Shown: positions 1 through 23,738 of the stretch, one piece after another
Numbering within the stretch: position 1 is the stretch's first letter
Layout of the letters: every line of letters begins with the position of its first letter
IMG/VR virus record: IMGVR_UViG_2651869781_000011
DNA length: 34,848 bases
Reading direction: 5' to 3' (one strand)
Origin: a virus
Taxonomy: Duplodnaviria; Heunggongvirae; Uroviricota; Caudoviricetes
Made by a program: the position numbers and the translations under genes
Notes under the pieces: model-generated
What the model was told of the DNA's origin: nothing
The model's database searches: none
Seen by the model: only the letters and a program-made list of their open reading frames with translations

Positions 1-528
1 CGGGCGCGGCGGCAGGTTACCCACCACTACCGAGGCCAGATACTGCGAGGTGGTTTTGCCCTTAATGGTGATGTCTTTTTCCGTCACCCAGCCACCGTTA
101 CGCTGTATCTGAACCAGCAGGCGAACTTCCGACGGATTCCGGTCCCCCTTTGAAGTGGTTTCCACCAGTGCCTGCACACCGAAGGTAAAGCGCAGACGGT
201 CGATGTTTGCCGACGTGATGGTCCGGGTGAGCGGATTGTCATATTTTAATTCTGCACCGATAACGGTTTCTGAACCGGAGGATTCAAATCCCTCCGGCGG
301 TGTCTGCTCCTGCTCACCTGCCCGGAACACCACCGTGACACCGGAGATATTGGTATTCCCCTCACTGTCCAGCACTGGCGTACTGTTCAGCAGCACACTT
401 TTTAATCCATCCACCGGACCTTCAATCGGCCCTTCACTGATGGCGTCTATCACGCTCAGCAGCTGGGATGATTTCAGGTTGTCCTTCGCTTCGCGCGGGG
501 TATGCCCCTTACTGCTGCCTTTACCCAT
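1..528 (-). CDS. J: Tail tip / host-specificity protein J, N-terminal part (gene continues past window start)
   Basis: Minus-strand ATG at 528-526; translation MGKGSSKGHTPREAKDNLKS... matches the lambda gpJ N-terminus as recalled; lies directly after I. The + ORF 155-544 in the track is antisense to it. Confidence 0.85.
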   Translation of the reverse strand, partial: MGKGSSKGHTPREAKDNLKSSQLLSVIDAISEGPIEGPVDGLKSVLLNSTPVLDSEGNTNISGVTVVFRAGEQEQTPPEGFESSGSETVIGAELKYDNPLTRTITSANIDRLRFTFGVQALVETTSKGDRNPSEVRLLVQIQRNGGWVTEKDITIKGKTTSQYLASVVVGNLPPRP

Positions 529-588
529 TCCTCACGCTCCATAAACGACAAAACCGCCCTGAGGCGGTTTCACATAAAACGTTTTTCA

Positions 589-1236
589 TCAACGACCAAT
601 CACCACAACCTGACCACCGTCCCCCTCGTCTGCCGTGCTAATCTCCTGAGAGACAACACGTGACCCCACGCGCATTTCACCGTACAGAACAGGCAGAACA
701 TTGCCCTGGGCAACCATGTTGTCCAGTGACGAGAAATACGTGTTCTGCTTACCGTTATCCGTTGTTTGTGTGCGGGGAGTTCTGGGTTTAGGGGCCAGCA
801 TCTGGGCCACACCGCCCAGGATCATACTGGCTCCTGCCGCATACATGCCCGATAAAGCCGCAGCACCCAGCCAGCCTGCAGGGTTCCACCATGCCACCGC
901 AATCAGCGCCGCCCCCAGCACAGCCTGAAATACGCCGCCACTTTTAGCCCCCGCCAGGCGCGGTACGATGTGGATCACGGCACCATTTGCCAGCGGCTCA
1001 TTAAGACGGGCAGATAATTCGGTTTCACCTGCATCACGCCCGGCAATGCGCACCTGATACCAGCCGTCATTCAGTTTCTGACGAAACGCCGGGACCTGTG
1101 TGGACAGTGCGCGGATGGCTTCAGCCCCCGTTTTCACACGAAGGTCGATGCGGCGGCCAAATCGTTGCAAATCCCCGTAAAGGCAGATGCGTGCCATGCC
1201 CGGTGACGCCAGAGGGAGTGTGTGCGTCGCTGCCAT
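589..1236 (-). CDS. I: Tail assembly protein I
   Basis: 215 aa, MAATHTLPLASPGMARICLYGDLQRFGRR..., lambda gpI-like; start overlaps the 3' end of K as in lambda. Confidence 0.9.
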   Translation of the reverse strand: MAATHTLPLASPGMARICLYGDLQRFGRRIDLRVKTGAEAIRALSTQVPAFRQKLNDGWYQVRIAGRDAGETELSARLNEPLANGAVIHIVPRLAGAKSGGVFQAVLGAALIAVAWWNPAGWLGAAALSGMYAAGASMILGGVAQMLAPKPRTPRTQTTDNGKQNTYFSSLDNMVAQGNVLPVLYGEMRVGSRVVSQEISTADEGDGGQVVVIGR

Positions 1237-1877
1237 TTGTCGGTATACCTCTCTCGTTTGCTCAGTTGTTCAGGAATATGGTGCAACAGCTCGCCGTCGC
1301 CGCAGTAAATGGCGGCATGATTCGGCACCGATGAACCAAAACAGCACAGCAGCACATCGCCCGGTTGTGCTGATGACAACGGCACCTGATACAGCCCTGT
1401 GGCCTCCAGATTATCCAAATAGAGATTCTGACCGTGACGCCACCAGTCATCCTCGCGATGAAAATCCGGCATCTCAATCCCCGCCAGATGATAAGCATCC
1501 CGGAACAGCGTGTAACAGTCCGTCACCCCGTGCTCAAAGCGCCGCCCGGTGAGATGCGGCACACAGCGGAACTTATGAATCGTCACCCGGCAGACCAGCC
1601 ACCACGGCAAATCACTCTGCACCTGCAGCCGCCGGTCGGCCTCACTCAGCCAGGGCAGACCACCGGGGTGGCTGTGGACCAGCGCCACAATCTCACCGTG
1701 CAGTGTTGCCTGCAGCCAGTCCTCCGGCGACATCCGGAAATAATCTTCCGGCTCACCGGAGATATTCACGCAGGGGAAATATCTTTTCCCCTCCGACGTT
1801 CTCACCACGAAGCCGCACGACTCCGCTGGCGCACATCGCCGGGCGTGCGCCAGAATCGCTGATTCTGTCTCTGTCAT
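1134..1877 (-). CDS. K: Tail assembly protein K (NlpC/P60 + JAB/MPN-like)
   Basis: 247 aa, ...HSHPGGLPWLSEADRR... and ...TDCYTLFRDAYH... motifs; sits between L and I. Confidence 0.9.
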   Translation of the reverse strand: MTETESAILAHARRCAPAESCGFVVRTSEGKRYFPCVNISGEPEDYFRMSPEDWLQATLHGEIVALVHSHPGGLPWLSEADRRLQVQSDLPWWLVCRVTIHKFRCVPHLTGRRFEHGVTDCYTLFRDAYHLAGIEMPDFHREDDWWRHGQNLYLDNLEATGLYQVPLSSAQPGDVLLCCFGSSVPNHAAIYCGDGELLHHIPEQLSKRERYTDKWQRRTHSLWRHRAWHASAFTGICNDLAAASTFV

Positions 1878-1882
1878 GGGAT

Positions 1883-2581
1883 TTACTGCGAAAGTTTGTT
1901 AATGGAAAGGAAGCCGCCAAAGTTGCCGACGTTATTGCGAAACTTACAGCCACTCAGGCATTTGCTACATTTATCCTTCGTGATATCGGACGTCGGCTGG
2001 TCATATTCATCCGCGACAGCCGGACCATTATAACCGCACTCATCACCGCGATAGGTCCAGGTGCAGGTGTTGGCCAGCATGATGCGCCCCGGAAAAACGG
2101 CACCATCCGTTTCCGTCGGTGTGGACAACACAAAGGAGGCACTGACCGCGCTCAGTTCGCTGCACTGCTCGACGCGCCAGCGGCTGATCACCTCCTGCTC
2201 CGGATCGGCGTCACTGTTTCCGTTGACGAAGTTCACCGCATCCAGAAAACGGGCGTAAACCTTACGCCTGACCACCGTTCCGCCGACCAGACTTTGCAGG
2301 TCTTCCGCCATCCCGGTGACCATGCCGTGCAGGTTAGAGACTTTCAGCGTTGGTCTTGCACTGGCTCCTTTGCCGTTCATCTCAAAGCCGCTTCCCTGAA
2401 TAGGGTACGCCTGATACTGTCGCCCCTGCCAGGTGACTGACTCACCTTTTTCGTTCTGCTCATTACAGAAAAAATAACGCTCGCCACCGACTTCGGTCAG
2501 ATCGACTTCCCAGAGCACGACCAGTGCGGATTGCTCCGCTTTTGTACACTCATTCAGTGTTTCCTGTTGTATATCCTGCAT
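1883..2581 (-). CDS. L: Minor tail protein L
   Basis: 232 aa with Cys-rich C-terminus (CSKCLSGCKF), lambda gpL-like; conserved M-L-K-I-J order. Confidence 0.9.
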   Translation of the reverse strand: MQDIQQETLNECTKAEQSALVVLWEVDLTEVGGERYFFCNEQNEKGESVTWQGRQYQAYPIQGSGFEMNGKGASARPTLKVSNLHGMVTGMAEDLQSLVGGTVVRRKVYARFLDAVNFVNGNSDADPEQEVISRWRVEQCSELSAVSASFVLSTPTETDGAVFPGRIMLANTCTWTYRGDECGYNGPAVADEYDQPTSDITKDKCSKCLSGCKFRNNVGNFGGFLSINKLSQ

Positions 2582-2914: not shown

Positions 2915-5900
2915 TCAGGCACTGCATAATCCTCCGTCCCGACGTGATGACTGCATAATTGACACAACCCTGCTGTCGATCAGATCCACCAGCCCCCTGG
3001 CTGACTGCGTATCTATCTCGCCATTGCTCCCTTTATTCTGAATACTGATGTGATACACGGGAGAATAAACAAATCCCCCGCCACCATTCACATTGCCAAT
3101 GGCTCTGACCCCAAGAGAGCCGTCCGCTGCCCGTGTCAGTGGCATGATAGCTTCAGGCCCGGCCTCGCCCATCAGCCCGGCACCTTTCGCAAAAGCAAAA
3201 TACGTCGGTGTATCCACAATAGTGTTACTGTAAGCACTCAGATTTGCCGATGTGTAAACACCACCTTTTGCGTTTGCCACTGCACCGGAAAGCCAGTCGC
3301 CGACCGTACCAAGCCATCCTCCGGCACCGGACATGCTTTTGGAAAGTGACTTCAGCCCGTTAACGATGGCAGCGTTCATCAGAATTTTTGAAACTTCCTG
3401 GAGGATTGAACTCCCCCAGTTTCGCCAGTCCACAACATTTCCGGCCAGTGCATCGGAAATATTTGATACCAGCCCGTCCATAGTGGAAACGACAGCATCT
3501 GCCGCCTGCGAAGCATAATCGGTGGCACTGTCTGCCCAGTTCGTCAGCCCCTCCTGGAGTCCGGCATTCCAGTCACTGCGTAAAGCATCAGCCTTTGCAT
3601 AATAATCCTGCTGATCGCTGAGACGCTCTTCCAGATATTTTTCATTCAGCGATTTTTCCTGTTTCCACAGGGCTTCTTCAATTTCTCCGGCCTGATACTG
3701 TCTCAGCAGCTCGTTATTTTTCTGCTCAAACGCCTGCCGGATACTCCACATTTCCTGGAGTCGTTCACGCATCCGTGAGCCTTCACCATATCCCAGCAAC
3801 TGCGCGTCGTCAGATGCCCGGGCGCTGGCATTACTGTCCGCCAGACTGCTTTCATACGCGGCAAGCTGCTCACGAATCTTTTTCTGGTCGATGAGTGCCG
3901 CATTCTGTAAAAGCGTTTTTTTCTGCGCTTCTGACAGGGTTGATAATTCGCCCTGACTGACCTGATATTTCATCTTAGCCAGTTCAGTATTCTGACCTGC
4001 CAGTGCTATTTGTTCTTTTTGCTGTTTAATCAGCCGTTTATAAATATCTTCTGTTTTTTCCGCTTCGGTCTTTTTATGCGCTTTGGGTTTATTTGCCTGG
4101 TTATTTCGCCAGGCATCCAGTGAGTTATTGATATAATTCTGTCTGGCTGTCTGATACGCCTCTCCCACAAAGCCGAGATCATCCGCAGCATAACCCAGTC
4201 GGGCACGCTCACGGGCTTCCCCCTTCAGGCGGGACAGAGCCAGTTCGCGCTCGCTGTTATTCAGTGCGGTCTGCTGTTTATCATCCAGGGTGGCCTGTGG
4301 CAGCCGTAACGGTACATTCACCAGCCCCTGTCGCTGCTGAAGTAATTCATTACCAAGCCCGAGAAGGCGATTAAACTCGGTATGCTGCCCATTCATGATC
4401 AACATGGACTGATACGCTTTGTTTTGTTCCGCTGCCTGTTGACGGATCAACGCAACCCGCCGCTCCTCCAGCCCGGCAAGCACATCCTGAATGGATTGCG
4501 CTTTGTCCTGCATTTGAGTGAGGCGAGACTGTTCAACTGCCAGTTGATTTGTTGCTTCTGCAAGCCCTTCTGTGACAGTTTTTACCGACGTCATGTGGTT
4601 AATCATAAAACCGTTATCGGTTGTCCAGCCCGGGTTTGCCAGCACATACTGATAGCCAGCAATTTTTTCCTGTAAGGATTTAATCTTACTTTTCTGCTCG
4701 TCAATTAACCTGTTCTGCTCCTTCAGTGCCTGCCGCGTCTTTTCCTCATTATCTGACGCTTCAGGAAGCGACATTGCCGACGTTTTCTGGCGAATTTCGT
4801 CGATTGTTGCGGCATACTGGCGTGCAGATTCTCTGGCCTGCTCCTGATTCTGATACATCGTGTACCAGGCCGTCGCCCCCAGCATGACGAGTCCCGGCAC
4901 ACCACCAACCAACCCCAGCGCACCACTTAACAGACGACTCCCCACTGACGTGACAGTATTCAGCGTTGTCTGTGCCGCTGTTCTGGCCGTAATATTACGG
5001 GTAAGTGACGCCTGGGCAGCTGTCAGCTTCGCTTCTGCGGCTGCCTGCCTTTCGGTACCGCGAGCAGCAACAACCGCCTGTTGCGCACGATAAACCGCCG
5101 CACGCGCCCTGGCGGTTGCTATCTGTGTCCCCCGAAGTTGCGCTTCAGCAAGAGCCACTTCGTTTCTGGCTGCAGTAATTAATCCGGCAGTTGCAGATCC
5201 AGCAGAAGACGCCATATTGCCAAAATATCGGGCTACCCCGACGGCAACCAGAGCACCGGCAGCGGTTGCCACAGTGTCAATATTGCCTGCAATACCATTC
5301 AGCACACCAGAGAGCGTCTTTGTCACTCCGCTTGCCTCGTTCGCACCACCAACCCAGGCCATAAAGGCGTTTTCAACTTTGGTTGCAGAGGATGAAACCG
5401 TATCAGGCATTGCTGCATATTCATCACGCAACGCCCCAAGCTGACTAATCAGTGCAGGGACAACCTTATCGGCAGTCAGTTTTCCGTTATCCGCCATGGC
5501 CTTCAGATCCTTACGGGCAACACCCATTCCCGCAGCCAGCGCACGAATAACACGATCGCCGTTCTCATTCACAGAGTTAAATTCTTCACCACGCAGCACT
5601 CCCTGCGCCAGTGCCTGACTGAACTGCGTGATCACCGAACTGGCTTCTGCTGTACTGGCACCGGATAATTTCAGGCCCGTGGAGATCGCCTCGGTGACTT
5701 TCAGTACCTCCTCAGAACTGTAGCCATACTCCCGCATGGAAGCTGCAGAACGGGCAAAAAGGCTGGCGTTATCAGAAAACGCCGTCCCCGTTCTCTGGCT
5801 GATCGCCATTAATTCACGCTGTGATGCCTGAAAATCATCACTGGACTGTGAGGCCTGCTTCAGACGGGCATTTACTGAATTCCACTCATCGGCGAGAGAA

Positions 5901-14383: not shown

Positions 14384-14865
14384 CAGTCTCTCGCTTTTAA
14401 AAGCTCTGCCAGTGGATCAACATCATCCGGTCCGGCGGTATTTACTTTCGCCCGGCTTGCCGGTGACATACCAAACTCTGCAAGCATCGCCCGGATCCGC
14501 TTCCAGGCATCCGCCTTCATCGCCGCAGCCGGATGTGCCTTGATCATCACATCGCCATTCTGCGTTTCCGTGCGGTAGGTATAACCCTCAACATCGAGTG
14601 TTTCGCAGTGATGTCGGTATTCGGTGTAGGCTTCCACCAGTAACTCGAGTGCACGCGCATCAAGCTGAGAAATGATCCCTTCCGCATTCAATTCTTCCGC
14701 CATTCGCCTGAACCAGTACTTCCCCTGTGCCCCTAAATGTTGCGGAATTTTAGGGAGACCTTTTTCATCCTTTTTAGCGGTTTTTTTGGGGTCTTTAACG
14801 GGGCGCTTTGAGGGGTTGCCTCGTATCAAATGCAGGCGTGGCGGGGTTTTCGGGGGTCCTGACAT
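14383..14865 (-). CDS. Terminase small subunit
   Basis: 160 aa, basic N-terminus (PKTPPRLHLIRGNPSKRP...); immediately upstream of TerL. Confidence 0.8.
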   Translation of the reverse strand: MSGPPKTPPRLHLIRGNPSKRPVKDPKKTAKKDEKGLPKIPQHLGAQGKYWFRRMAEELNAEGIISQLDARALELLVEAYTEYRHHCETLDVEGYTYRTETQNGDVMIKAHPAAAMKADAWKRIRAMLAEFGMSPASRAKVNTAGPDDVDPLAELLKARD

Positions 14866-15011
14866 AATCGGTCTTACCTATCAATCGTTTGTTCACATTT
14901 CCAAAAAAGTTTTCGAACCTGCGGCGATGCGAGGAAAGGTCAGGCGGCGGTCCTGAGCAGCCTGGGTTGCAGAGATTTGACCCGCCCCTCCCCCACAGAT
15001 GAGAACAGTTA

Positions 15012-15382: not shown

Positions 15383-15679
15383 TTAAAGCGCTTGTCCCTC
15401 GGGGAGGATACAGATCACCCCCAACCCCGCAGCCACGGCGTACTGATTATGTTCATCGACAAGATTTATTGTGCTATCAAGTAACTCACGACAGTGGCTT
15501 ACATTCGTTTCAATGCTCAACACCAGTGAATAAGCACTATTCAACTCCTGACCTGATAAGAACGGAGAATCAGCAGAAACAATTTCCGATTTTATTTTTC
15601 GCAGAGCGCAAAGATTTTCTTCAATGCATTTTCTCAGGACAACGCAACGCCCAATCGCCTCATAGTTTTGCTCAGACAT
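15383..15679 (-). CDS. Hypothetical protein (98 aa)
   Basis: Track ORF begins at a TTG; first ATG at 15679 (MSEQNYEAIG...); no signal peptide; between Rz and HNH. Confidence 0.4.
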   Translation of the reverse strand: MSEQNYEAIGRCVVLRKCIEENLCALRKIKSEIVSADSPFLSGQELNSAYSLVLSIETNVSHCRELLDSTINLVDEHNQYAVAAGLGVICILPEGQAL

Positions 15680-15704
15680 TTCACCCACCTGTTTCAAAAG
15701 TACT

Positions 15705-16169
15705 CTACTTAATGCACTGATCGCGGATATATTCCTGCAATCCCCTGATCATTTTTTCGCTGGTTGCAGCTCGCTCTCTGAGGATGAAATAATCCCGTTG
15801 AGCGGAGTCAGTAAGTCCGGGGCTGGCTGCATCATCCACGCCGGAGGAGGCGGTGGCTTCACGCACGGCTGGACAGACTGCTCTGATGCGCAACCGACGA
15901 CGACCAGCGGCAATATCATCACGCAGAGCATCATTTTCAGCTTTCGCATCAGCTAATTCCTTTGAATATTTTGCATCGAGTGCAGCAACGTCACGCTGGC
16001 GCACCTGCATATCAGTAATGATCGCCTCTGCCAGTTTCAGCTCTCTGGCATTGTCATCGCGTTGTGTTTTGTAGGTAATGGCGTTATCGCGGTAATGCTC
16101 TGTTGCCAGCCACAGAGCACTACAGACCATCAGCAGGACAATAATCACGCCATACAGAATTCGGTTCAT
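15705..16169 (-). CDS. Rz: Rz i-spanin
   Basis: From ATG 16169: MNRILYGVIIVLLMVCSALWLATEHYRDNAITYK...; close to lambda Rz as recalled; N-terminal TM anchor. Confidence 0.85.
   Translation of the reverse strand: MNRILYGVIIVLLMVCSALWLATEHYRDNAITYKTQRDDNARELKLAEAIITDMQVRQRDVAALDAKYSKELADAKAENDALRDDIAAGRRRLRIRAVCPAVREATASSGVDDAASPGLTDSAQRDYFILRERAATSEKMIRGLQEYIRDQCIK
15749..15949 (-). CDS. Rz1: Rz1 o-spanin lipoprotein, embedded in Rz in another frame
   Basis: 66 aa MRKLKMMLCVMILPLVVVGCASEQ...PPPPPAWMMQP...; lipobox VVGC, Pro-rich; fully inside Rz. Confidence 0.8.
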   Translation of the reverse strand: MRKLKMMLCVMILPLVVVGCASEQSVQPCVKPPPPPAWMMQPAPDLLTPLNGIISSSESELQPAKK

Positions 16170-16343
16170 TTCACCACCAGCGTATCTGACCGATGAAATA
16201 ACCGGAGCCCATAACCACAAACACCAGCCAGATAAGGATGAACTTCCAGATGGATAATTTTTCAGCCATCACTCGAATCTCCAGAATCAGTTTGCTAAAA
16301 TCAAACACGTTTTCTCCTTTAGCTTTCCCATGGGCAGAAAACA

Positions 16344-16380
16344 AAACCCCGCTTGCTGCCAACAAACGGGGTTTTTGCTT
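16344..16380. terminator. Bidirectional stem-loop with flanking T/A runs between endolysin and Rz
   Basis: AAACCCCG...CGGGGTTT stem followed by TTTTGCTTTTATT on +, and by a T-run on the minus strand. Confidence 0.35.
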
Positions 16381-16465
16381 TTATTCACTTACCTTTTGCC
16401 AGTTTGCAGAATATCGTGCTATCCGCTTGTGTGAGCAAACGGCATTTTTCAGCAAAATATTCTGC

Positions 16466-16999
16466 TTATCTGTCGATCCCCCAGCACACCAGCGCACTCT
16501 CCTGGTCACGACGAATAACCTGACCGTAACAGTTATTTGAACGAATGCGGCAATCACGGCCACCGTCCTTAATCCACCAGCGAATCGCCTCGCATGCGCC
16601 TTTGCGATCACCGGCATTCAGCCGCTTATAAAACGTCGACGGGAAACACTTACCGGGGCCAATGTTATAGGGACAAAATGACGCAATACCTGCTTTTTGT
16701 GGTTCGGTCAGTGGTACTTTTATATTGCGATCCACCCATGCCAGCGCCTTATCACGTTCAATAGCGTTAACCTGGTCGCATTTTTCCTTCGACAGCTTCA
16801 TTCCCGGTATGACGGGCTTACCATCCACCATTGTGGCACCACGACAGATGGTCCATATGCCAGAACCATCACGGTATGCCGTTGTGTGGTTACCTTCTTT
16901 TTCATCCAGAAACTGGTCAAGTATTTGAGGAGCAGACGCGCCTGCAGCAATCAGCGCCAGAACGGCAGCTGACAGGCCGTATTTGATTTTTGCGTTCAT
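16466..16999 (-). CDS. R: SAR endolysin (T4-lysozyme-like, GH24)
   Basis: 177 aa; N-terminal Ala/Gly-rich signal-anchor-release segment (YGLSAAVLALIAAGASAP); resembles Stx-phage-type endolysins as recalled. Confidence 0.9.
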   Translation of the reverse strand: MNAKIKYGLSAAVLALIAAGASAPQILDQFLDEKEGNHTTAYRDGSGIWTICRGATMVDGKPVIPGMKLSKEKCDQVNAIERDKALAWVDRNIKVPLTEPQKAGIASFCPYNIGPGKCFPSTFYKRLNAGDRKGACEAIRWWIKDGGRDCRIRSNNCYGQVIRRDQESALVCWGIDR

Positions 17000-17062
17000 G
17001 GATATTTATCAGAATTTACCGGTTTCTGCCCATGGACAGGTTTATCTGTTCCGGTCAGTGGC

Positions 17063-17413
17063 TTAAGGTTGCGATTCCGGAGGAGTCTTCAGAGAACAAG
17101 TAATTCTTCCCGGTAGCTTTCCTTTGTAGGTTACCCACACATTCTGCGCCTCAAAAATTATGGGGCGTTTTTCTGGCGACGGCTCATCCCATTCACATAA
17201 CCTGGCAGCAACATCCAGAAATACCTGTCTGATTCTCCTTCTGGCTGCTGCCTCATAAAACTCCAGCGCAGCACCTTCAACACGGTCCATGGTGATGTCC
17301 AGGTCAAAAATTTCACCGTCAAAGCGTTCTTTGTTCCGTAAGGCTAAAGTTACCGCAACTTTATTCTCAAAATTGCGGACTCCCTTAACAACCAGTTCAT
17401 AGTTTTGAGTCAT
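17063..17413 (-). CDS. Hypothetical cytoplasmic protein (116 aa) inserted between holin and endolysin
   Basis: ATG 17413 lies 4 nt after the holin stop with a GGGAGAG SD; no TM segment or signal peptide. Confidence 0.55.
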   Translation of the reverse strand: MTQNYELVVKGVRNFENKVAVTLALRNKERFDGEIFDLDITMDRVEGAALEFYEAAARRRIRQVFLDVAARLCEWDEPSPEKRPIIFEAQNVWVTYKGKLPGRITCSLKTPPESQP

Positions 17414-17417
17414 TAAA

Positions 17418-17633
17418 TTACTCTCCCCGCGCAGCCTTACGCTTGTCTTCTCTGATTTTGAAGTACAGATTTGTCAGATAAGTCAGGAAGCCCAGAACCA
17501 GACTCCCCAGCACACCAATCGCAGCCCACTGTGACGGACTGACCTGATCAAGCCACTGTAAAAACCAGTAGCCAGCACTGCCTGCGGAGGTGCCGTAGGC
17601 AATGCCAGTTGAAATTTTGTCCATGGATTTCAT
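17418..17633 (-). CDS. S: Pinholin (phage 21 S-type holin)
   Basis: 71 aa [27 protein letters not shown]...; near-identical to S21 as recalled; pairs with the SAR endolysin. Confidence 0.85.
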
Positions 17634-17689
17634 AGCCTCACCTCCGCAAATAACGGATGGCGTAGTTTTACACTGAGAGATGAAAGGGA

Positions 17690-17720
17690 TTTGAAAAGAA
17701 AAGCCCGCAAAAGCGGGCGA
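17690..17720 (-). terminator. Hairpin plus T-run between the tRNAs and the holin gene
   Basis: GCCCGC-aaaa-GCGGGC stem; minus strand continues TTTTCTTTTC. Confidence 0.4.
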
Positions 17721-17924
17721 AATTGGATCTACAGTCAGGAAAGCACTCTATCCAACAAACCACCCACAGTTAATCGGAATAAAAGCAGAGTGCTTATGAA
17801 TGATCGCCTGCCCGAAGGTTGTTATTCCTGCACAGCAATTTTGCAAAAAAGACGCTCATTCATAACCCAAACGTCTTTCAGTCACTCCGGGCTTTCCCAT
17901 CATCGCAGACTGAAAGACTCTAAC

Positions 17925-17999
<75 letters not shown>

Positions 18000-18002
18000 A
18001 TA

Positions 18003-18078
<76 letters not shown>

Positions 18079-23293: not shown

Positions 23294-23449
23294 TTACTCC
23301 TCAGGTTCGTAAGCTGTGAAGACAGCGACCTCCGTCTGGCCGGTTCGGATTCGTACCTCGCAGAGGTCTTTCCTCGTTACCAGTGCCGTCACTATGACGG
23401 TTAAACAGATGACGATCAGGGCGATTAACATCGCCTTTTGCTGCTTCAT
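23294..23449 (-). CDS. hok: Hok/Gef-family type I toxin (HokD/RelF-like)
   Basis: 51 aa MKQQKAMLIALIVICLTVIVTALVTRKDLCEVRIRTGQTEVAVFTAYEPEE, checked codon by codon; below the 60-aa cutoff of the ORF track; AAGGAG SD. Confidence 0.85.
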   Translation of the reverse strand: MKQQKAMLIALIVICLTVIVTALVTRKDLCEVRIRTGQTEVAVFTAYEPEE

Positions 23450-23738
23450 AGCCTGCTTCTCCTTGACCTTTCGGTCCGTAAGAGGCTAATCTCTATGTGT
23501 CGCATAGATATGGCCTCAGATTAATGTTAAGCGTCTTGCAGGACGCGTAATGTTAACTGGGGCTTTTCTCTATCTGCCGTTGGTGTTCATGCCTGAGGCA
23601 GATAGCCTCAAGCACCCGCAGCAATTCTACTTAACTCTCCTTTTCCCGCAAATCGTTTTTATCCCCAGCGGCAAATCGAATACACCACCAGCGCCACCGC
23701 CATTGCAATTCCCATCGTTGCGAATGCTTCAGGCCAGG

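What the first reader, a model, noticed from the sequence alone, without database searches (positions are those of the whole stretch)
16170..16465. Unusual ~290-bp spacer between endolysin and Rz with a small TM ORF and a bidirectional terminator
R and Rz are usually adjacent. Here the gap contains a strong stem-loop with T-runs on both strands (16344-16380) and a possible 32-codon hydrophobic ORF (ATG 16269, MAEKLSIWKFILIWLVFVVMGSGYFIGQIRWW) whose stop is 1 nt from the Rz start.
Basis: seen in the sequence. Interest (0 to 1): 0.35.

Follow-up and report, generated by a model that had tools for sequence, protein, structure and literature searches.

The report
Mobile small membrane-protein gene cassette
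The gap between the phage endolysin and Rz genes holds a small mobile gene unit, made of a terminator hairpin, a partly hidden ribosome-binding site and a 45-codon membrane-protein gene of unknown function, which also turns up at other places in the late operons of many temperate phages.

Summary
It is a 296-nt R–Rz gap (16465..16170, genes on the minus strand) with a strong hairpin and a hydrophobic ORF ending 1 nt before the Rz ATG. The gap has two parts.

- **Trailer (16465..16376):** a variable stretch that travels with R.
- **Cassette (~16381..16171):** an intrinsic-terminator hairpin, an SD, and a 45-codon ORF starting at GTG 16308.

The ORF is a real gene. Start and SD are conserved, pN/pS is about 0.1–0.4, and it matches PHROG 6632 ('unknown function'). 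About 40 representative homologs conserve the N-terminal 13 residues.

The same unit sits between R and Rz in H-19B and other Stx phages and in SPN3UB. It also sits between baseplate genes (Rac-SA53, SEN34, a Yersinia prophage) and after gpK, portal or terminase genes elsewhere. It is always co-oriented with the upstream late gene, and 933W carries an ant cassette in its exact place.

Across 27 diverse copies the terminator and an SD-occluding stem show covariation. All 34 variants examined keep an internal ATG (30 with an SD-like motif before it), so a dual start is possible.

Best reading: a promoter-less late-operon moron for a tightly restrained tail-anchored membrane peptide. Its function is unknown, the antisense (type I toxin) reading is unsupported, and interest is moderate.

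The parts
16466..16999 (-). R: SAR-type phage lysozyme (177 aa). This is the upstream neighbour of the cassette, not part of it.
   Evidence: ORF list. Pfam PF00959, E = 1.2e-24.
16376..16465 (-). Trailer linked to R. It is variable non-coding sequence shared with phages that carry a different cassette (933W). In this lineage only, 16465..16406 forms a 60-nt hairpin.
   Evidence: Homology with 933W runs from R to window 16373 and then stops. Variable sites are 33-50% among 47 distinct relatives. The hairpin has z = -6.1 here but about -1 in the E. coli relatives.
16343..16375 (-). Intrinsic-terminator-type hairpin. It is the 5' element of the cassette, with an A-tract upstream (16376..16388) and a U-tract downstream (16342..16333).
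   Evidence: Terminator scan. The sense strand folds at -23.9 kcal/mol and the antisense at -16.9. By eye it is present upstream of the ORF in 34 of 35 distinct family variants. Covariation on 27 leaders: 13 pairs, 82% of cells paired, 8 pairs changed on both sides.
16309..16342 (-). Leader: U-tract, short spacer and Shine-Dalgarno AAAGGAG (16320..16314), 5 nt before the GTG. In most relatives the 3' arm of a 5-bp stem overlaps the SD. In this window that stem is weak (3 of 5 pairs), and the predicted fold pairs the U-tract GUUUUCU with AGAAAAC at the SD instead.
   Evidence: Sequence. MFE structure. Helix 2 on A8: 82% of cells paired, 3 of 5 pairs changed on both sides. An SD motif precedes the first start in 34/34 variants.
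16171..16308 (-). Small gene: 45 codons plus TGA, GTG start. Product: MFDFSKLILEIRVMAEKLSIWKFILIWLVFVVMGSGYFIGQIRWW. It has an N-terminal amphipathic helix (predicted cytoplasmic), one transmembrane helix and a 3-residue C-terminal tail.
   Evidence: Translation. PGAP annotates the E. coli homolog as WP_000459345.1. phrog_6632 matches full length, E = 1e-26. For codons 15-45, pS is 0.5-0.9 and pN is 0.04-0.3. 40 representatives in 1.8 billion proteins. AF2 gives helices 4-17 and 20-44, pLDDT 85. Charge and hydropathy.
16171..16269 (-). An SD-like GGAG lies at 16282..16279. This is a possible second start site.
   Evidence: An internal ATG at residue 13-15 is present in 34/34 distinct variants. 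GGAG, GAGG or a similar motif lies within 4-16 nt upstream in 30/34. The G before GAG is kept across Arg, Leu, Met and Lys codons. Synonymous change is suppressed in codons 2-14, pS 0-0.3.
15705..16169 (-). Rz (i-spanin), the downstream neighbour. Its ATG lies 1 nt after the small ORF's TGA (TGGTGGTGAAATG). Rz1 is embedded at 15949..15749.
   Evidence: ORF list. Pfam PF03245, E = 5.4e-46. The junction is invariant in the E. coli relatives.

Best explanation
Window ~16381..16171 (minus strand) is a self-contained mobile accessory-gene unit, a moron in the broad sense, that has no promoter of its own. It has four parts in order:
1. an intrinsic-terminator hairpin with a U-tract;
2. a short leader in which the Shine-Dalgarno sequence is partly sequestered;
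3. a weak GTG start;
4. a 45-codon gene for a tail-anchored inner-membrane peptide, with a cytoplasmic amphipathic helix, one transmembrane helix and a tiny periplasmic end.

The unit inserts, always co-oriented, between genes of the late operons of temperate phages. Here it sits at the R/Rz junction, a hot spot where other phages carry an ant cassette or other small membrane ORFs.

Inferred mechanism:
- The leading terminator blocks ordinary read-through, so the gene is transcribed only by terminator-resistant (Q-modified) late transcription.
- SD occlusion and the non-ATG start then keep translation low.
- The RWW-stop end (UGGUGGUGA) sits right before the next start codon, so translation can pass on to Rz.

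The peptide is therefore made late and in small amounts in the inner membrane. The most likely role is a dispensable modulator of the cell envelope at the end of infection (lysis timing or a related membrane step). The biochemical function is unknown.

Shown: the anatomy, the coding status, the mobility and the conserved leader structure. Inferred: Q-dependence, low expression, toxicity and any role in lysis.
For: **Coding**
- E. coli vs Yersinia: 10 synonymous and 5 conservative codon changes, with 0 second-position and 12 third-position differences.
- pN/pS is about 0.1-0.4 for codons 15-45 across 7 lineages.
- GTG and SD are invariant in those lineages.
- Distant homologs keep the N-terminal motif xSK[LI]I[RK]E[ILV]R[ILV]MxE[KR]LxxW[KR]F.

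**Unit boundaries and mobility**
- The Yersinia similis and Rac-SA53 copies match only window 16381..16171.
- In 933W, homology stops at 16373 and resumes at 16172, and an ant cassette lies in between.
- Among 106 non-redundant flanks, 64 have R upstream and/or Rz downstream (58 with both), 24 lie between baseplate genes and 4 follow gpK. Single cases follow a portal, a terminase, a tape-measure gene, and sit at an endolysin/lipoprotein junction in a distant phage.
- Wherever an upstream neighbour was identified, it is co-oriented with the unit.
- The cassette's GC is 0.445, against 0.509 for R and 0.514 for Rz.

**Leader**
- The hairpin and U-tract are seen upstream in 34 of 35 distinct variants, including high-GC contigs.
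- Covariation score is 0.301 against 0.112 in shuffles (0 of 500 reach it); slid controls are 0.086 or lower. Both helices have about 82% of cells paired.
- The first start is GTG or TTG in 28 of 34 variants.
- No sigma-70-like promoter is found in window 15600..17800 on either strand, and none is consistently placed in three other loci.

**Protein**
- AF2 predicts helix, break, helix at pLDDT 85.
- The N-side has 4-5 K/R and the C-side one.
Against: - No expression data exist for this family. Nothing shows that the hairpin terminates, that Q-modified polymerase reads through it, or that the peptide is made, toxic, or involved in lysis.
- A classical moron has its own promoter and a downstream terminator. 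Here the terminator is upstream and no promoter was found.
- About 40% of the non-redundant copies lie outside lysis cassettes, so a lysis-specific role is not required by the data.
- In this window the SD-occluding stem is weak (3 of 5 pairs).
- Not every host phage was shown to use Q-type antitermination.
- The loci were collected with the protein as bait. The hairpin-ORF linkage is well sampled, but hairpins without the ORF were not searched for.
Confidence: 0.6

Rival explanations
1. Type I toxin-antitoxin-like module. The hydrophobic peptide is a membrane toxin. The hairpin serves on the opposite (plus) strand as the terminator of a cis-antisense RNA that starts inside the ORF, covers its start and SD, and represses translation.
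For: - The peptide is small and hydrophobic, with a sequestered SD and a non-ATG start.
- The hairpin has an A-tract upstream that gives a U-tract on the plus strand, conserved even in high-GC copies.
- Synonymous change is unusually low in codons 2-14.
- In E. coli relatives the ORF is the least variable part of the region: 8-9% variable sites against 23% in R and 37% in Rz.
- The best Rfam hit, below threshold, is ohsC, the antitoxin RNA of the shoB toxin: 22.9 bits, E = 0.71.
Against: - The ohsC hit is far below the gathering score of 50 and rests mainly on the generic terminator.
- The scan finds no promoter-like site on the plus strand of the window. The only -10-like hexamer I found by eye (GATAAT, 16253-16258) has a poor -35 and becomes GGTAAT in SEN34 and SPN3UB (alignment). 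The antisense site found in SEN34 is not conserved in position.
- G·U pairs make the hairpin more stable on the sense strand in 6 of 7 lineages.
- The toxin gene has no promoter of its own, which type I systems have.
- The low synonymous rate in codons 2-14 can be explained by the internal SD and ATG.
Confidence: 0.1
2. Dedicated lysis regulator with a dual start. The 45-aa and 32-aa products from GTG 16308 and ATG 16269 act as an effector/inhibitor pair, by analogy with holin/antiholin. They would tune pinholin triggering, SAR-endolysin release or spanin action.
For: - The unit sits between the endolysin and the spanin in most copies sampled, and again in a distant high-GC phage.
- An invariant internal ATG with an SD-like motif gives two in-frame starts in 34/34 and 30/34 variants.
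- The endolysin here is an SAR type and the holin an S21-type pinholin.
- A second, unrelated small TM ORF sits in the same position in 933W and Sakai Sp15, and the authors of a RIBOseq study class it as a real gene.
Against: - 24 of 106 non-redundant copies lie between baseplate genes, and others follow gpK, portal, terminase or tape-measure genes.
- Many phages with the same R and Rz lack the unit (Qin; 933W), so it is dispensable for lysis.
- There is no similarity to holin families or to the Mu releasin DUF2730.
- The predicted topology (N-in, tiny C-out end) is unlike holins, which have charged cytoplasmic C-termini. It is opposite to releasin, which is N-out, C-in and 99 aa (PMC9239132).
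- Met14 lies on the hydrophobic face of the helix and could be conserved for structure.
Confidence: 0.2
3. Non-functional spacer. The hairpin is simply the terminator or mRNA-stabilising 3' end of R. The ORF is a chance reading frame or only a coupling leader whose peptide does not matter, as reported for orf45 of the Gifsy-1 isrK locus.
For: - The stop lies 1 nt from the Rz ATG and the RWW-stop end gives an SD-like GGUGGUGA before it.
- A published precedent exists: a 45-codon ORF after an sRNA terminator, whose translation activates the downstream gene and whose amino-acid sequence is not conserved (PMC4825925).
Against: - The amino-acid sequence is conserved under purifying selection across genera.
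- The hairpin travels with the ORF, not with R.
- In L100-L102 the unit is followed by a terminator and a convergent gene, with nothing downstream to couple to.
- Rfam finds no isrK match in the window, in the spacer at E up to 10, or in 8 related loci.
Confidence: 0.05

Closest known systems
Morons of lambdoid phages (Juhala et al. 2000; examples are lambda bor and lom, the HK97 gp15 moron in the tail genes, and the ant gene between R and Rz of 933W)
   Same: - It is an extra gene present in some phages and absent or replaced at the same junction in close relatives.
- It occurs in late operons, including tail-gene clusters.
- It has lower GC than its neighbours.
- It encodes a small membrane protein, like HK97 gp15 (the gp15 comparison is from my own knowledge, not tested here).
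   Different: - No promoter of its own was found.
- The terminator lies upstream of the gene, not downstream.
- Expression is therefore expected only from the host late operon, not from the prophage.
PHROG phrog_6632 / RefSeq WP_000459345.1 ('hypothetical protein', 45 aa)
   Same: The window protein matches the whole 45-position profile at E = 1e-26. It is about 89% identical to WP_000459345.1, which is annotated right before Rz in E. coli prophages.
   Different: These are catalogue entries with no function, no described leader and no described mobility. Many records leave the ORF unannotated, and the H-19B record runs Rz across it.
Gifsy-1 isrK-orf45-anrP locus (Hershko-Shalev et al. 2016, PMC4825925)
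   Same: - A Rho-independent terminator is read through into a 45-codon ORF.
- The ORF's ribosome-binding site is sequestered.
- The ORF has two in-frame starts.
- Its stop abuts the next gene's start.
   Different: - There the upstream element is a promoter-driven sRNA that acts in trans, and the orf45 peptide sequence is not conserved.
- Here no promoter or sRNA body precedes the hairpin, the peptide is conserved, and Rfam finds no isrK match.
Type I toxins (Hok, ShoB, Ibs, TisB, ZorO)
   Same: - It is a small hydrophobic single-helix peptide.
- It has a structured leader that hides the SD.
- Expression looks tightly restrained.
   Different: - No antisense or divergent RNA gene and no toxin promoter were found.
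- It lies inside phage late operons.
- It has a conserved 20-residue cytoplasmic amphipathic helix.
Small TM ORF before Rz in 933W and Sakai Sp15 (ECs_5741 = XECs191; M(M)GWLMISDKLITLVK...)
   Same: - It occupies the same position, immediately upstream of Rz, and has a similar size with one TM helix.
- Its N-terminal MISDKLIT resembles MAEKLST at Met14 of the window peptide.
- The authors of a RIBOseq study in Sakai class it as 'real'.
   Different: - The sequence family differs.
- It follows ant with an overlapping stop and start, and has no terminator leader.

Membership tests
Moron (Juhala et al. 2000 sense) | An extra gene lies between two genes that are adjacent in related phages. | tested here: met
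   R and Rz overlap in Qin. The unit is replaced by ant in 933W, with breakpoints at 16373 and 16172. The same unit lies between baseplate genes elsewhere.
Moron (Juhala et al. 2000 sense) | It has its own promoter upstream and a factor-independent terminator downstream. | tested here: not met
   No promoter-like site was found in 15600..17800, and none is consistently placed in L008, L091 or L100. The terminator is upstream of the ORF in 34 of 35 variants.
Moron (Juhala et al. 2000 sense) | Its base composition differs from that of its neighbours. | tested here: met
   GC is 0.445 for the cassette, 0.509 for R and 0.514 for Rz. The difference is modest and the sequence is short.
PHROG 6632 small protein family | The protein matches the family profile over its full length. 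| tested here: met
   E = 1e-26, residues 1-45 on profile positions 1-45 of 45.
Type I toxin-antitoxin | The toxin is a small hydrophobic peptide under 60 aa. | tested here: met
   45 aa, with a TM helix at about residues 24-42. Toxicity itself cannot be tested here.
Type I toxin-antitoxin | An antisense or divergent antitoxin RNA with its own promoter overlaps the toxin mRNA. | tested here: inconclusive
   No conserved plus-strand promoter was found. The hairpin is usable on both strands but favours the sense strand in 6 of 7 lineages. No transcript data exist.
Type I toxin-antitoxin | The toxin gene has its own promoter. | tested here: not met
   Only 34 nt lie between the U-tract and the start, and they hold no promoter-like site.
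Holin / antiholin | The protein matches a holin family, or has a holin-like build: one or more TM domains plus a charged cytoplasmic C-terminus. | tested here: not met
   There is no Pfam hit. The C-terminal side is only RWW, and the charged segment is N-terminal. The cassette already has an S21-type holin at 17633..17418.
Holin / antiholin | A dual-start motif gives two products. | tested here: inconclusive
   Two in-frame starts, each with an SD-like motif, are conserved. They lie 13 codons apart rather than 2-3, and translation is untested.
Mu gp25 releasin (DUF2730) | The protein has the DUF2730 domain, is about 99 aa, and has an N-out/C-in topology with an acidic cytoplasmic domain (PMC9239132). 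| tested here: not met
   No DUF2730 hit. The protein is 45 aa, its predicted topology is N-in/C-out, and its N-terminal segment is basic.
isrK-orf45 type sRNA/leader-ORF switch | An isrK-family sRNA with its own promoter lies upstream of the ORF. | tested here: not met
   No isrK match at gathering threshold in the window, at E up to 10 in 15900..16800, or in 8 related loci. The segment upstream of the hairpin is variable and belongs to R.
Intrinsic (Rho-independent) terminator | A GC-rich stem-loop is followed by a U-tract. | tested here: met
   15 pairs with 6 GC, loop 3, tail GTTTTCTGCC. The feature is conserved with compensatory changes. Termination activity cannot be tested here.

The most novel reading that the evidence does not exclude
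The unit is a portable 'late-only' expression cassette of a kind not yet described. An upstream terminator makes the gene depend on antiterminated late transcription wherever it lands. An anti-SD stem and a weak first start throttle translation. Two conserved in-frame starts would yield a 45-aa and a 32-aa membrane peptide, with and without the cytoplasmic amphipathic helix, that act as an antagonistic pair. That pair would control a membrane event at the end of infection, such as lysis timing, membrane depolarisation or blocking of secondary infection.
Probability: 0.2. Interest if true: 0.65.

Novelty: new variant of a known kind. Interest (0 to 1): 0.42.

Why it matters
- **Annotation.** A conserved gene in Shiga-toxin phages such as H-19B and in about one in six complete E. 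coli genomes is often left unannotated. The H-19B record runs Rz across it.
- **Biology.** The family pairs an uncharacterised tail-anchored membrane peptide with a conserved two-stem leader, and it moves between unrelated late-operon sites.
  - If the leading terminator makes expression depend on antitermination, that is a simple, portable way for an accessory gene to be strictly late without a promoter.
  - The R/Rz junction carries at least three alternative inserts: this unit, ant plus another small TM ORF, and a triple small-ORF array. This makes it a tractable place to ask what small membrane peptides add to the canonical holin-endolysin-spanin pathway.
- **Limits.** No phenotype is known and the gene is clearly dispensable for lysis, so the finding is of moderate interest rather than a surprise.

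Tried and rejected
1. **sRNA from the 3' UTR of R.** The 60-nt hairpin right after the R stop (16465..16406), an A/U-rich linker and the terminator look like an Hfq-type sRNA. The hairpin is specific to this lineage, though. In 17 other sequence variants from E. coli relatives the same stretch folds no better than shuffles (z about -0.4 to -1.6), and it is the most variable part of the spacer.
2. **Known EHEC prophage sRNAs AgvB and AsxR.** These map to the moron site downstream of pR', not to the R/Rz junction (PMC4104026). There is no Rfam hit.
3. **IsrK.** No Rfam match.
4. **Antisense promoter.** Nothing conserved was found.
5. **Extra RNA structure in the 5' coding region** to explain its low synonymous rate. 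RNAalifold gave only invariant, uninformative pairs there. The internal SD and ATG explain it better.
6. **Remote homology.** No hit in Pfam, NCBIfam, PADLOC or PDB sequences.
7. **Plus-strand ORF 16238..16540** (100 aa, annotated as hypothetical in CP-1639). I treat it as spurious. It is antisense to the conserved gene, terminator and trailer and spans the variable trailer. This was not tested separately.
8. **Literature search for the peptide sequence or accession.** No paper found.
9. **Metagenome scan with the broad alignment.** I used subfamily alignments on viral contigs instead.
Full report
**1. What is in the window**

The lysis cassette lies on the minus strand:
- S21-type holin, 17633..17418 (PF04971).
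- A DUF1327/YdfR gene, 17413..17063.
- SAR-type lysozyme R, 16999..16466 (PF00959).
- Rz from ATG 16169 (PF03245), with Rz1 embedded.

The R–Rz gap is 16465..16170, 296 nt. The terminator scan finds one strong site in it, on the minus strand at 16375..16343: 15 pairs, loop 3, tail GTTTTCTGCC. The minus-strand RNA of the gap folds better than shuffles (z = -3.97). The plus strand does not (z = -1.18).

The window is nearly identical to IMG/VR prophage contigs, and its small protein is closest to Escherichia albertii entries.

**2. The gene is 45 codons, not 32**

PGAP annotates a 45-aa 'hypothetical protein' (WP_000459345.1) at the homologous place in some E. coli genomes. It starts at a GTG that corresponds to window 16308. 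I compared seven diverged copies: the window, two E. coli copies, Yersinia similis, Rac-SA53, SEN34 and SPN3UB.
- The GTG and an (A/G)GGAG SD 5-7 nt upstream are invariant in all seven.
- E. coli vs Yersinia shows 10 synonymous and 5 conservative codon changes. No second-position and 12 third-position differences occur.
- Across all pairs, codons 15-45 have pS of 0.5-0.9 and pN of 0.04-0.3.

A profile search of 1.84 billion representative proteins found 40 relatives of 32-86 aa. The full-length distant members retrieved are mostly 42-54 aa. They conserve the N-terminal motif xSK[LI]I[RK]E[ILV]R[ILV]MxE[KR]LxxW[KR]F, while the membrane helix and C-terminus vary. The first 13 residues are therefore translated.

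The protein matches phrog_6632 ('unknown function') over its full length. It has no Pfam, NCBIfam, PADLOC or PDB-sequence match.

AlphaFold2 gives helix 4-17, a break at 18-19, and helix 20-44, with pLDDT 85. The N-side carries 4-5 K/R and the C-side one, so the predicted topology is N-in, C-out: a tail-anchored peptide with a cytoplasmic amphipathic helix.

**3. The gap has two parts, and one is a mobile unit**

BLAST of the region against the fetched loci shows the following.
- The Yersinia similis and Rac-SA53 copies match only window 16381..16171. That stretch is the hairpin, leader and ORF. In those genomes it lies between a baseplate-V-like gene and a W-like gene, not in a lysis cassette. 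SEN34 has the same arrangement.
- In 933W, homology with the window runs from R to 16373, stops, and resumes at 16172. An ant cassette of about 900 bp lies in between.

So 16465..16376 is a variable trailer that belongs with R. The unit proper is ~16381..16171.

Among 106 non-redundant flanks:
- 58 are R|Rz, and 6 more have R or Rz on one side only.
- 24 are baseplate|baseplate.
- 4 follow gpK, next to a convergent Bro-N gene.
- 10 have neighbours I could not classify.

Single cases follow a portal, a terminase large subunit or a tape-measure gene. One sits between an endolysin and a lipoprotein in a distant high-GC phage.

Wherever an upstream neighbour was identified, it is co-oriented with the unit. 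The cassette's GC is 0.445, against about 0.51 for R and Rz. The spacer is common: 871 of 5426 complete E. coli genomes hold at least 80% of a 421-nt query spanning the spacer, as do H-19B and many Stx1 and Stx2 phages.

**4. The hairpin belongs to the gene, and the leader is conserved as structure**

By eye, 34 of 35 distinct protein variants have a hairpin of the form AAAA(C/G)CCCG…CGGG(G/C)TTTT plus a U-rich tail upstream of the ORF, about 25-45 nt before the start where measured (the automatic hairpin finder missed some). This holds in high-GC contigs and in unrelated contexts. The exception has a replaced 5' end.

I aligned 27 diverse leaders (A8) and counted pairs.

| Helix | Pairs | Cells paired | Pairs changed on both sides |
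|---|---|---|---|
| Terminator | 13 | 82% | 8 |
| Second stem (3' arm overlaps the SD) | 5 | 82% | 3 |

- In the terminator, one position is GC in 13 sequences, AU in 9 and CG in 4.
- The second stem occurs as CCTTG/CAAGG, CCTTA/TAAGG, CCTAT/ATAGG and CGTTA/TAACG.
- The overall covariation score is 0.301 against 0.112 in shuffles (0 of 500 reach it). Slid controls score 0.086 or less.

Two caveats apply. I proposed the structure after looking at these sequences. In the window itself the second stem is weak (3 of 5 pairs), and the predicted fold instead pairs the U-tract with AGAAAAC at the SD.

The hairpin is more stable on the sense strand in 6 of 7 lineages.

**5. A possible second start**

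All 34 variants examined have an SD before the first start, which is GTG in 23, TTG in 5 and ATG in 6. All 34 also keep an internal ATG at residue 13-15. In 30 of them a GGAG or GAGG-type motif lies within 4-16 nt upstream, about 9 nt in the window. The G before GAG is retained across Arg, Leu, Met and Lys codons.

This explains why synonymous change is suppressed in codons 2-14 (pS 0-0.3 against 0.5-0.9 downstream). It also explains why, among E. coli relatives, the ORF is the least variable part of the region. This is untested.

**6. How it most likely works**

Shown: a promoter-less unit of terminator, occluded SD, weak start and a conserved membrane-peptide gene. It inserts co-oriented into the late operons of temperate phages.

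Inferred:
- The leading terminator stops ordinary read-through, so only terminator-resistant late transcription (Q-modified in lambdoid phages) reaches the gene.
- Translation is kept low.
- The RWW-stop end (UGGUGGUGA) lies just before the next start codon, so the insert need not be polar on Rz.

Such layered restraint suggests a product that is harmful if made early. The bias towards the endolysin/spanin junction suggests an accessory role at the envelope late in infection. The gene is dispensable for lysis, because Qin and 933W lack it, and 40% of copies lie elsewhere. I put 0.6 on the cassette model as a whole and much less on any specific function.

**7. Rivals**

- *Type I toxin with a cis-antisense RNA ending at the hairpin.* This is attractive because of the peptide type, the flanking A and U tracts and the low synonymous rate. 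But no conserved plus-strand promoter was found, the hairpin favours the sense strand, there is no toxin promoter, and the ohsC hit is only 22.9 bits against a gathering score of 50. Confidence 0.1.
- *Dedicated dual-start lysis regulator.* The position bias and the two starts fit. The tail and head contexts, the topology and the lack of any holin or releasin similarity do not. Confidence 0.2.
- *Mere spacer or coupling leader, like Gifsy-1 orf45.* Purifying selection on the peptide contradicts this. So do copies with nothing downstream to couple to. Confidence 0.05.

**8. Comparison with what is known**

The unit behaves like a moron: an extra gene at a junction that is closed or differently filled in relatives. 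It fails the classical promoter–gene–terminator layout.

The protein family is catalogued (PHROG 6632, WP_000459345.1) without a function. No paper in the searchable library holds its sequence or accession.

The architecture resembles the isrK-orf45-anrP switch of Gifsy-1 (PMC4825925), but it lacks the sRNA and its promoter, and here the peptide is conserved.

A different small TM ORF occupies the same spot before Rz in 933W and Sakai Sp15 (ECs_5741 = XECs191). A RIBOseq-based study of Sakai classes it as 'real'. Small membrane peptides at this junction are therefore recurrent.

**9. Verdict**

The feature is real and conserved. What is there is a widespread, mobile, uncharacterised small-gene cassette with a conserved two-stem leader. 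I class it as a new variant of a known kind (moron or accessory small membrane protein), with moderate interest (0.42).

Noticed in passing
window 23447-23617 (-): There is a full-length match to the Rfam sok antitoxin RNA (RF01794, 102.9 bits against a gathering score of 59). It implies a hok/sok-type type I toxin-antitoxin locus in the early region of this prophage.
   Followed up: no
window 17925-18078 (-): Two tRNA genes (Gly-TCC and Thr-TGT) lie just upstream of the holin. A terminator-like hairpin lies at 17718..17703 between them and the holin. This is the place where Stx phages carry tRNAs and stx; no toxin gene is present here.
   Followed up: no
L092 (933W) about 2926-3070; L188 (Sakai Sp15) 14749-14895 (-), ECs_5741: A second, unrelated small one-TM ORF (M(M)GWLMISDKLITLVKSLCVLVGISFLVMLVAIFFSTAWRVLTLSGLVG) lies between ant and Rz. 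Its start overlaps the ant stop. It is unannotated in the 933W record. It equals XECs191, which a RIBOseq-based study of Sakai classes as 'real' (PMC5597208 supplement).
   Followed up: partly
L006 (phage vB_EcoS-569R3) 1554-2117 (-): This phage has three small hydrophobic ORFs in tandem between R and Rz. The first is a diverged member of the family studied here with a different C-terminal half. The second is a homolog of the 933W-type ORF. In a third frame (1554..1727), an internal Met gives a 28-aa peptide that ends in AIRWW right before Rz.
   Followed up: partly
L089 1496-1579 (+) and L100 4130-4218 (-): Rfam sRNA-Xcc1 (RF02221) matches at 78 and 63 bits against a gathering score of 53. 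The matches lie immediately upstream of the ant and Bro-N genes, which sit next to the cassette on the opposite strand in Rac-SA53 and in a lambda-like prophage.
   Followed up: no
window 16406-16465 (-): A 60-nt near-perfect hairpin lies directly after the R stop codon (-25.4 kcal/mol, z = -6.1). It exists only in this lineage. A single base change in the closest relatives weakens it, and E. coli relatives lack it. Its role, if any, is unknown.
   Followed up: yes
L093 (H-19B, AF034975.3) 101-673 (-): The GenBank Rz CDS of H-19B is 573 nt, against 468 nt in relatives. It was extended upstream across the small ORF in another frame, and the small ORF itself is not annotated.
   Followed up: partly
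window 16171-16182 (-) and homologs: The C-terminal RWW followed by a stop codon (CGC TGG TGG TGA) is kept in many otherwise diverged members and contexts. It places an SD-like GGUGGUGA just before the start of the next gene, 1 nt away here and 5-7 nt in other contexts. The amino-acid conservation may partly reflect this RNA role.
   Followed up: partly
window 15383-15697 (-): A 104-aa ORF lies between Rz and the HNH/terminase genes. It has no Pfam match and was not examined further.
   Followed up: no
L090 (SPN3UB) 1953-2069 (-): In SPN3UB, another short hydrophobic ORF (38 aa, TTG start, MTMSKRDVSALCFLMAAAVAISGNDGWGWLIFAGIIIL) overlaps the end of the endolysin gene, upstream of the trailer and the cassette. 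It may be chance.
   Followed up: no
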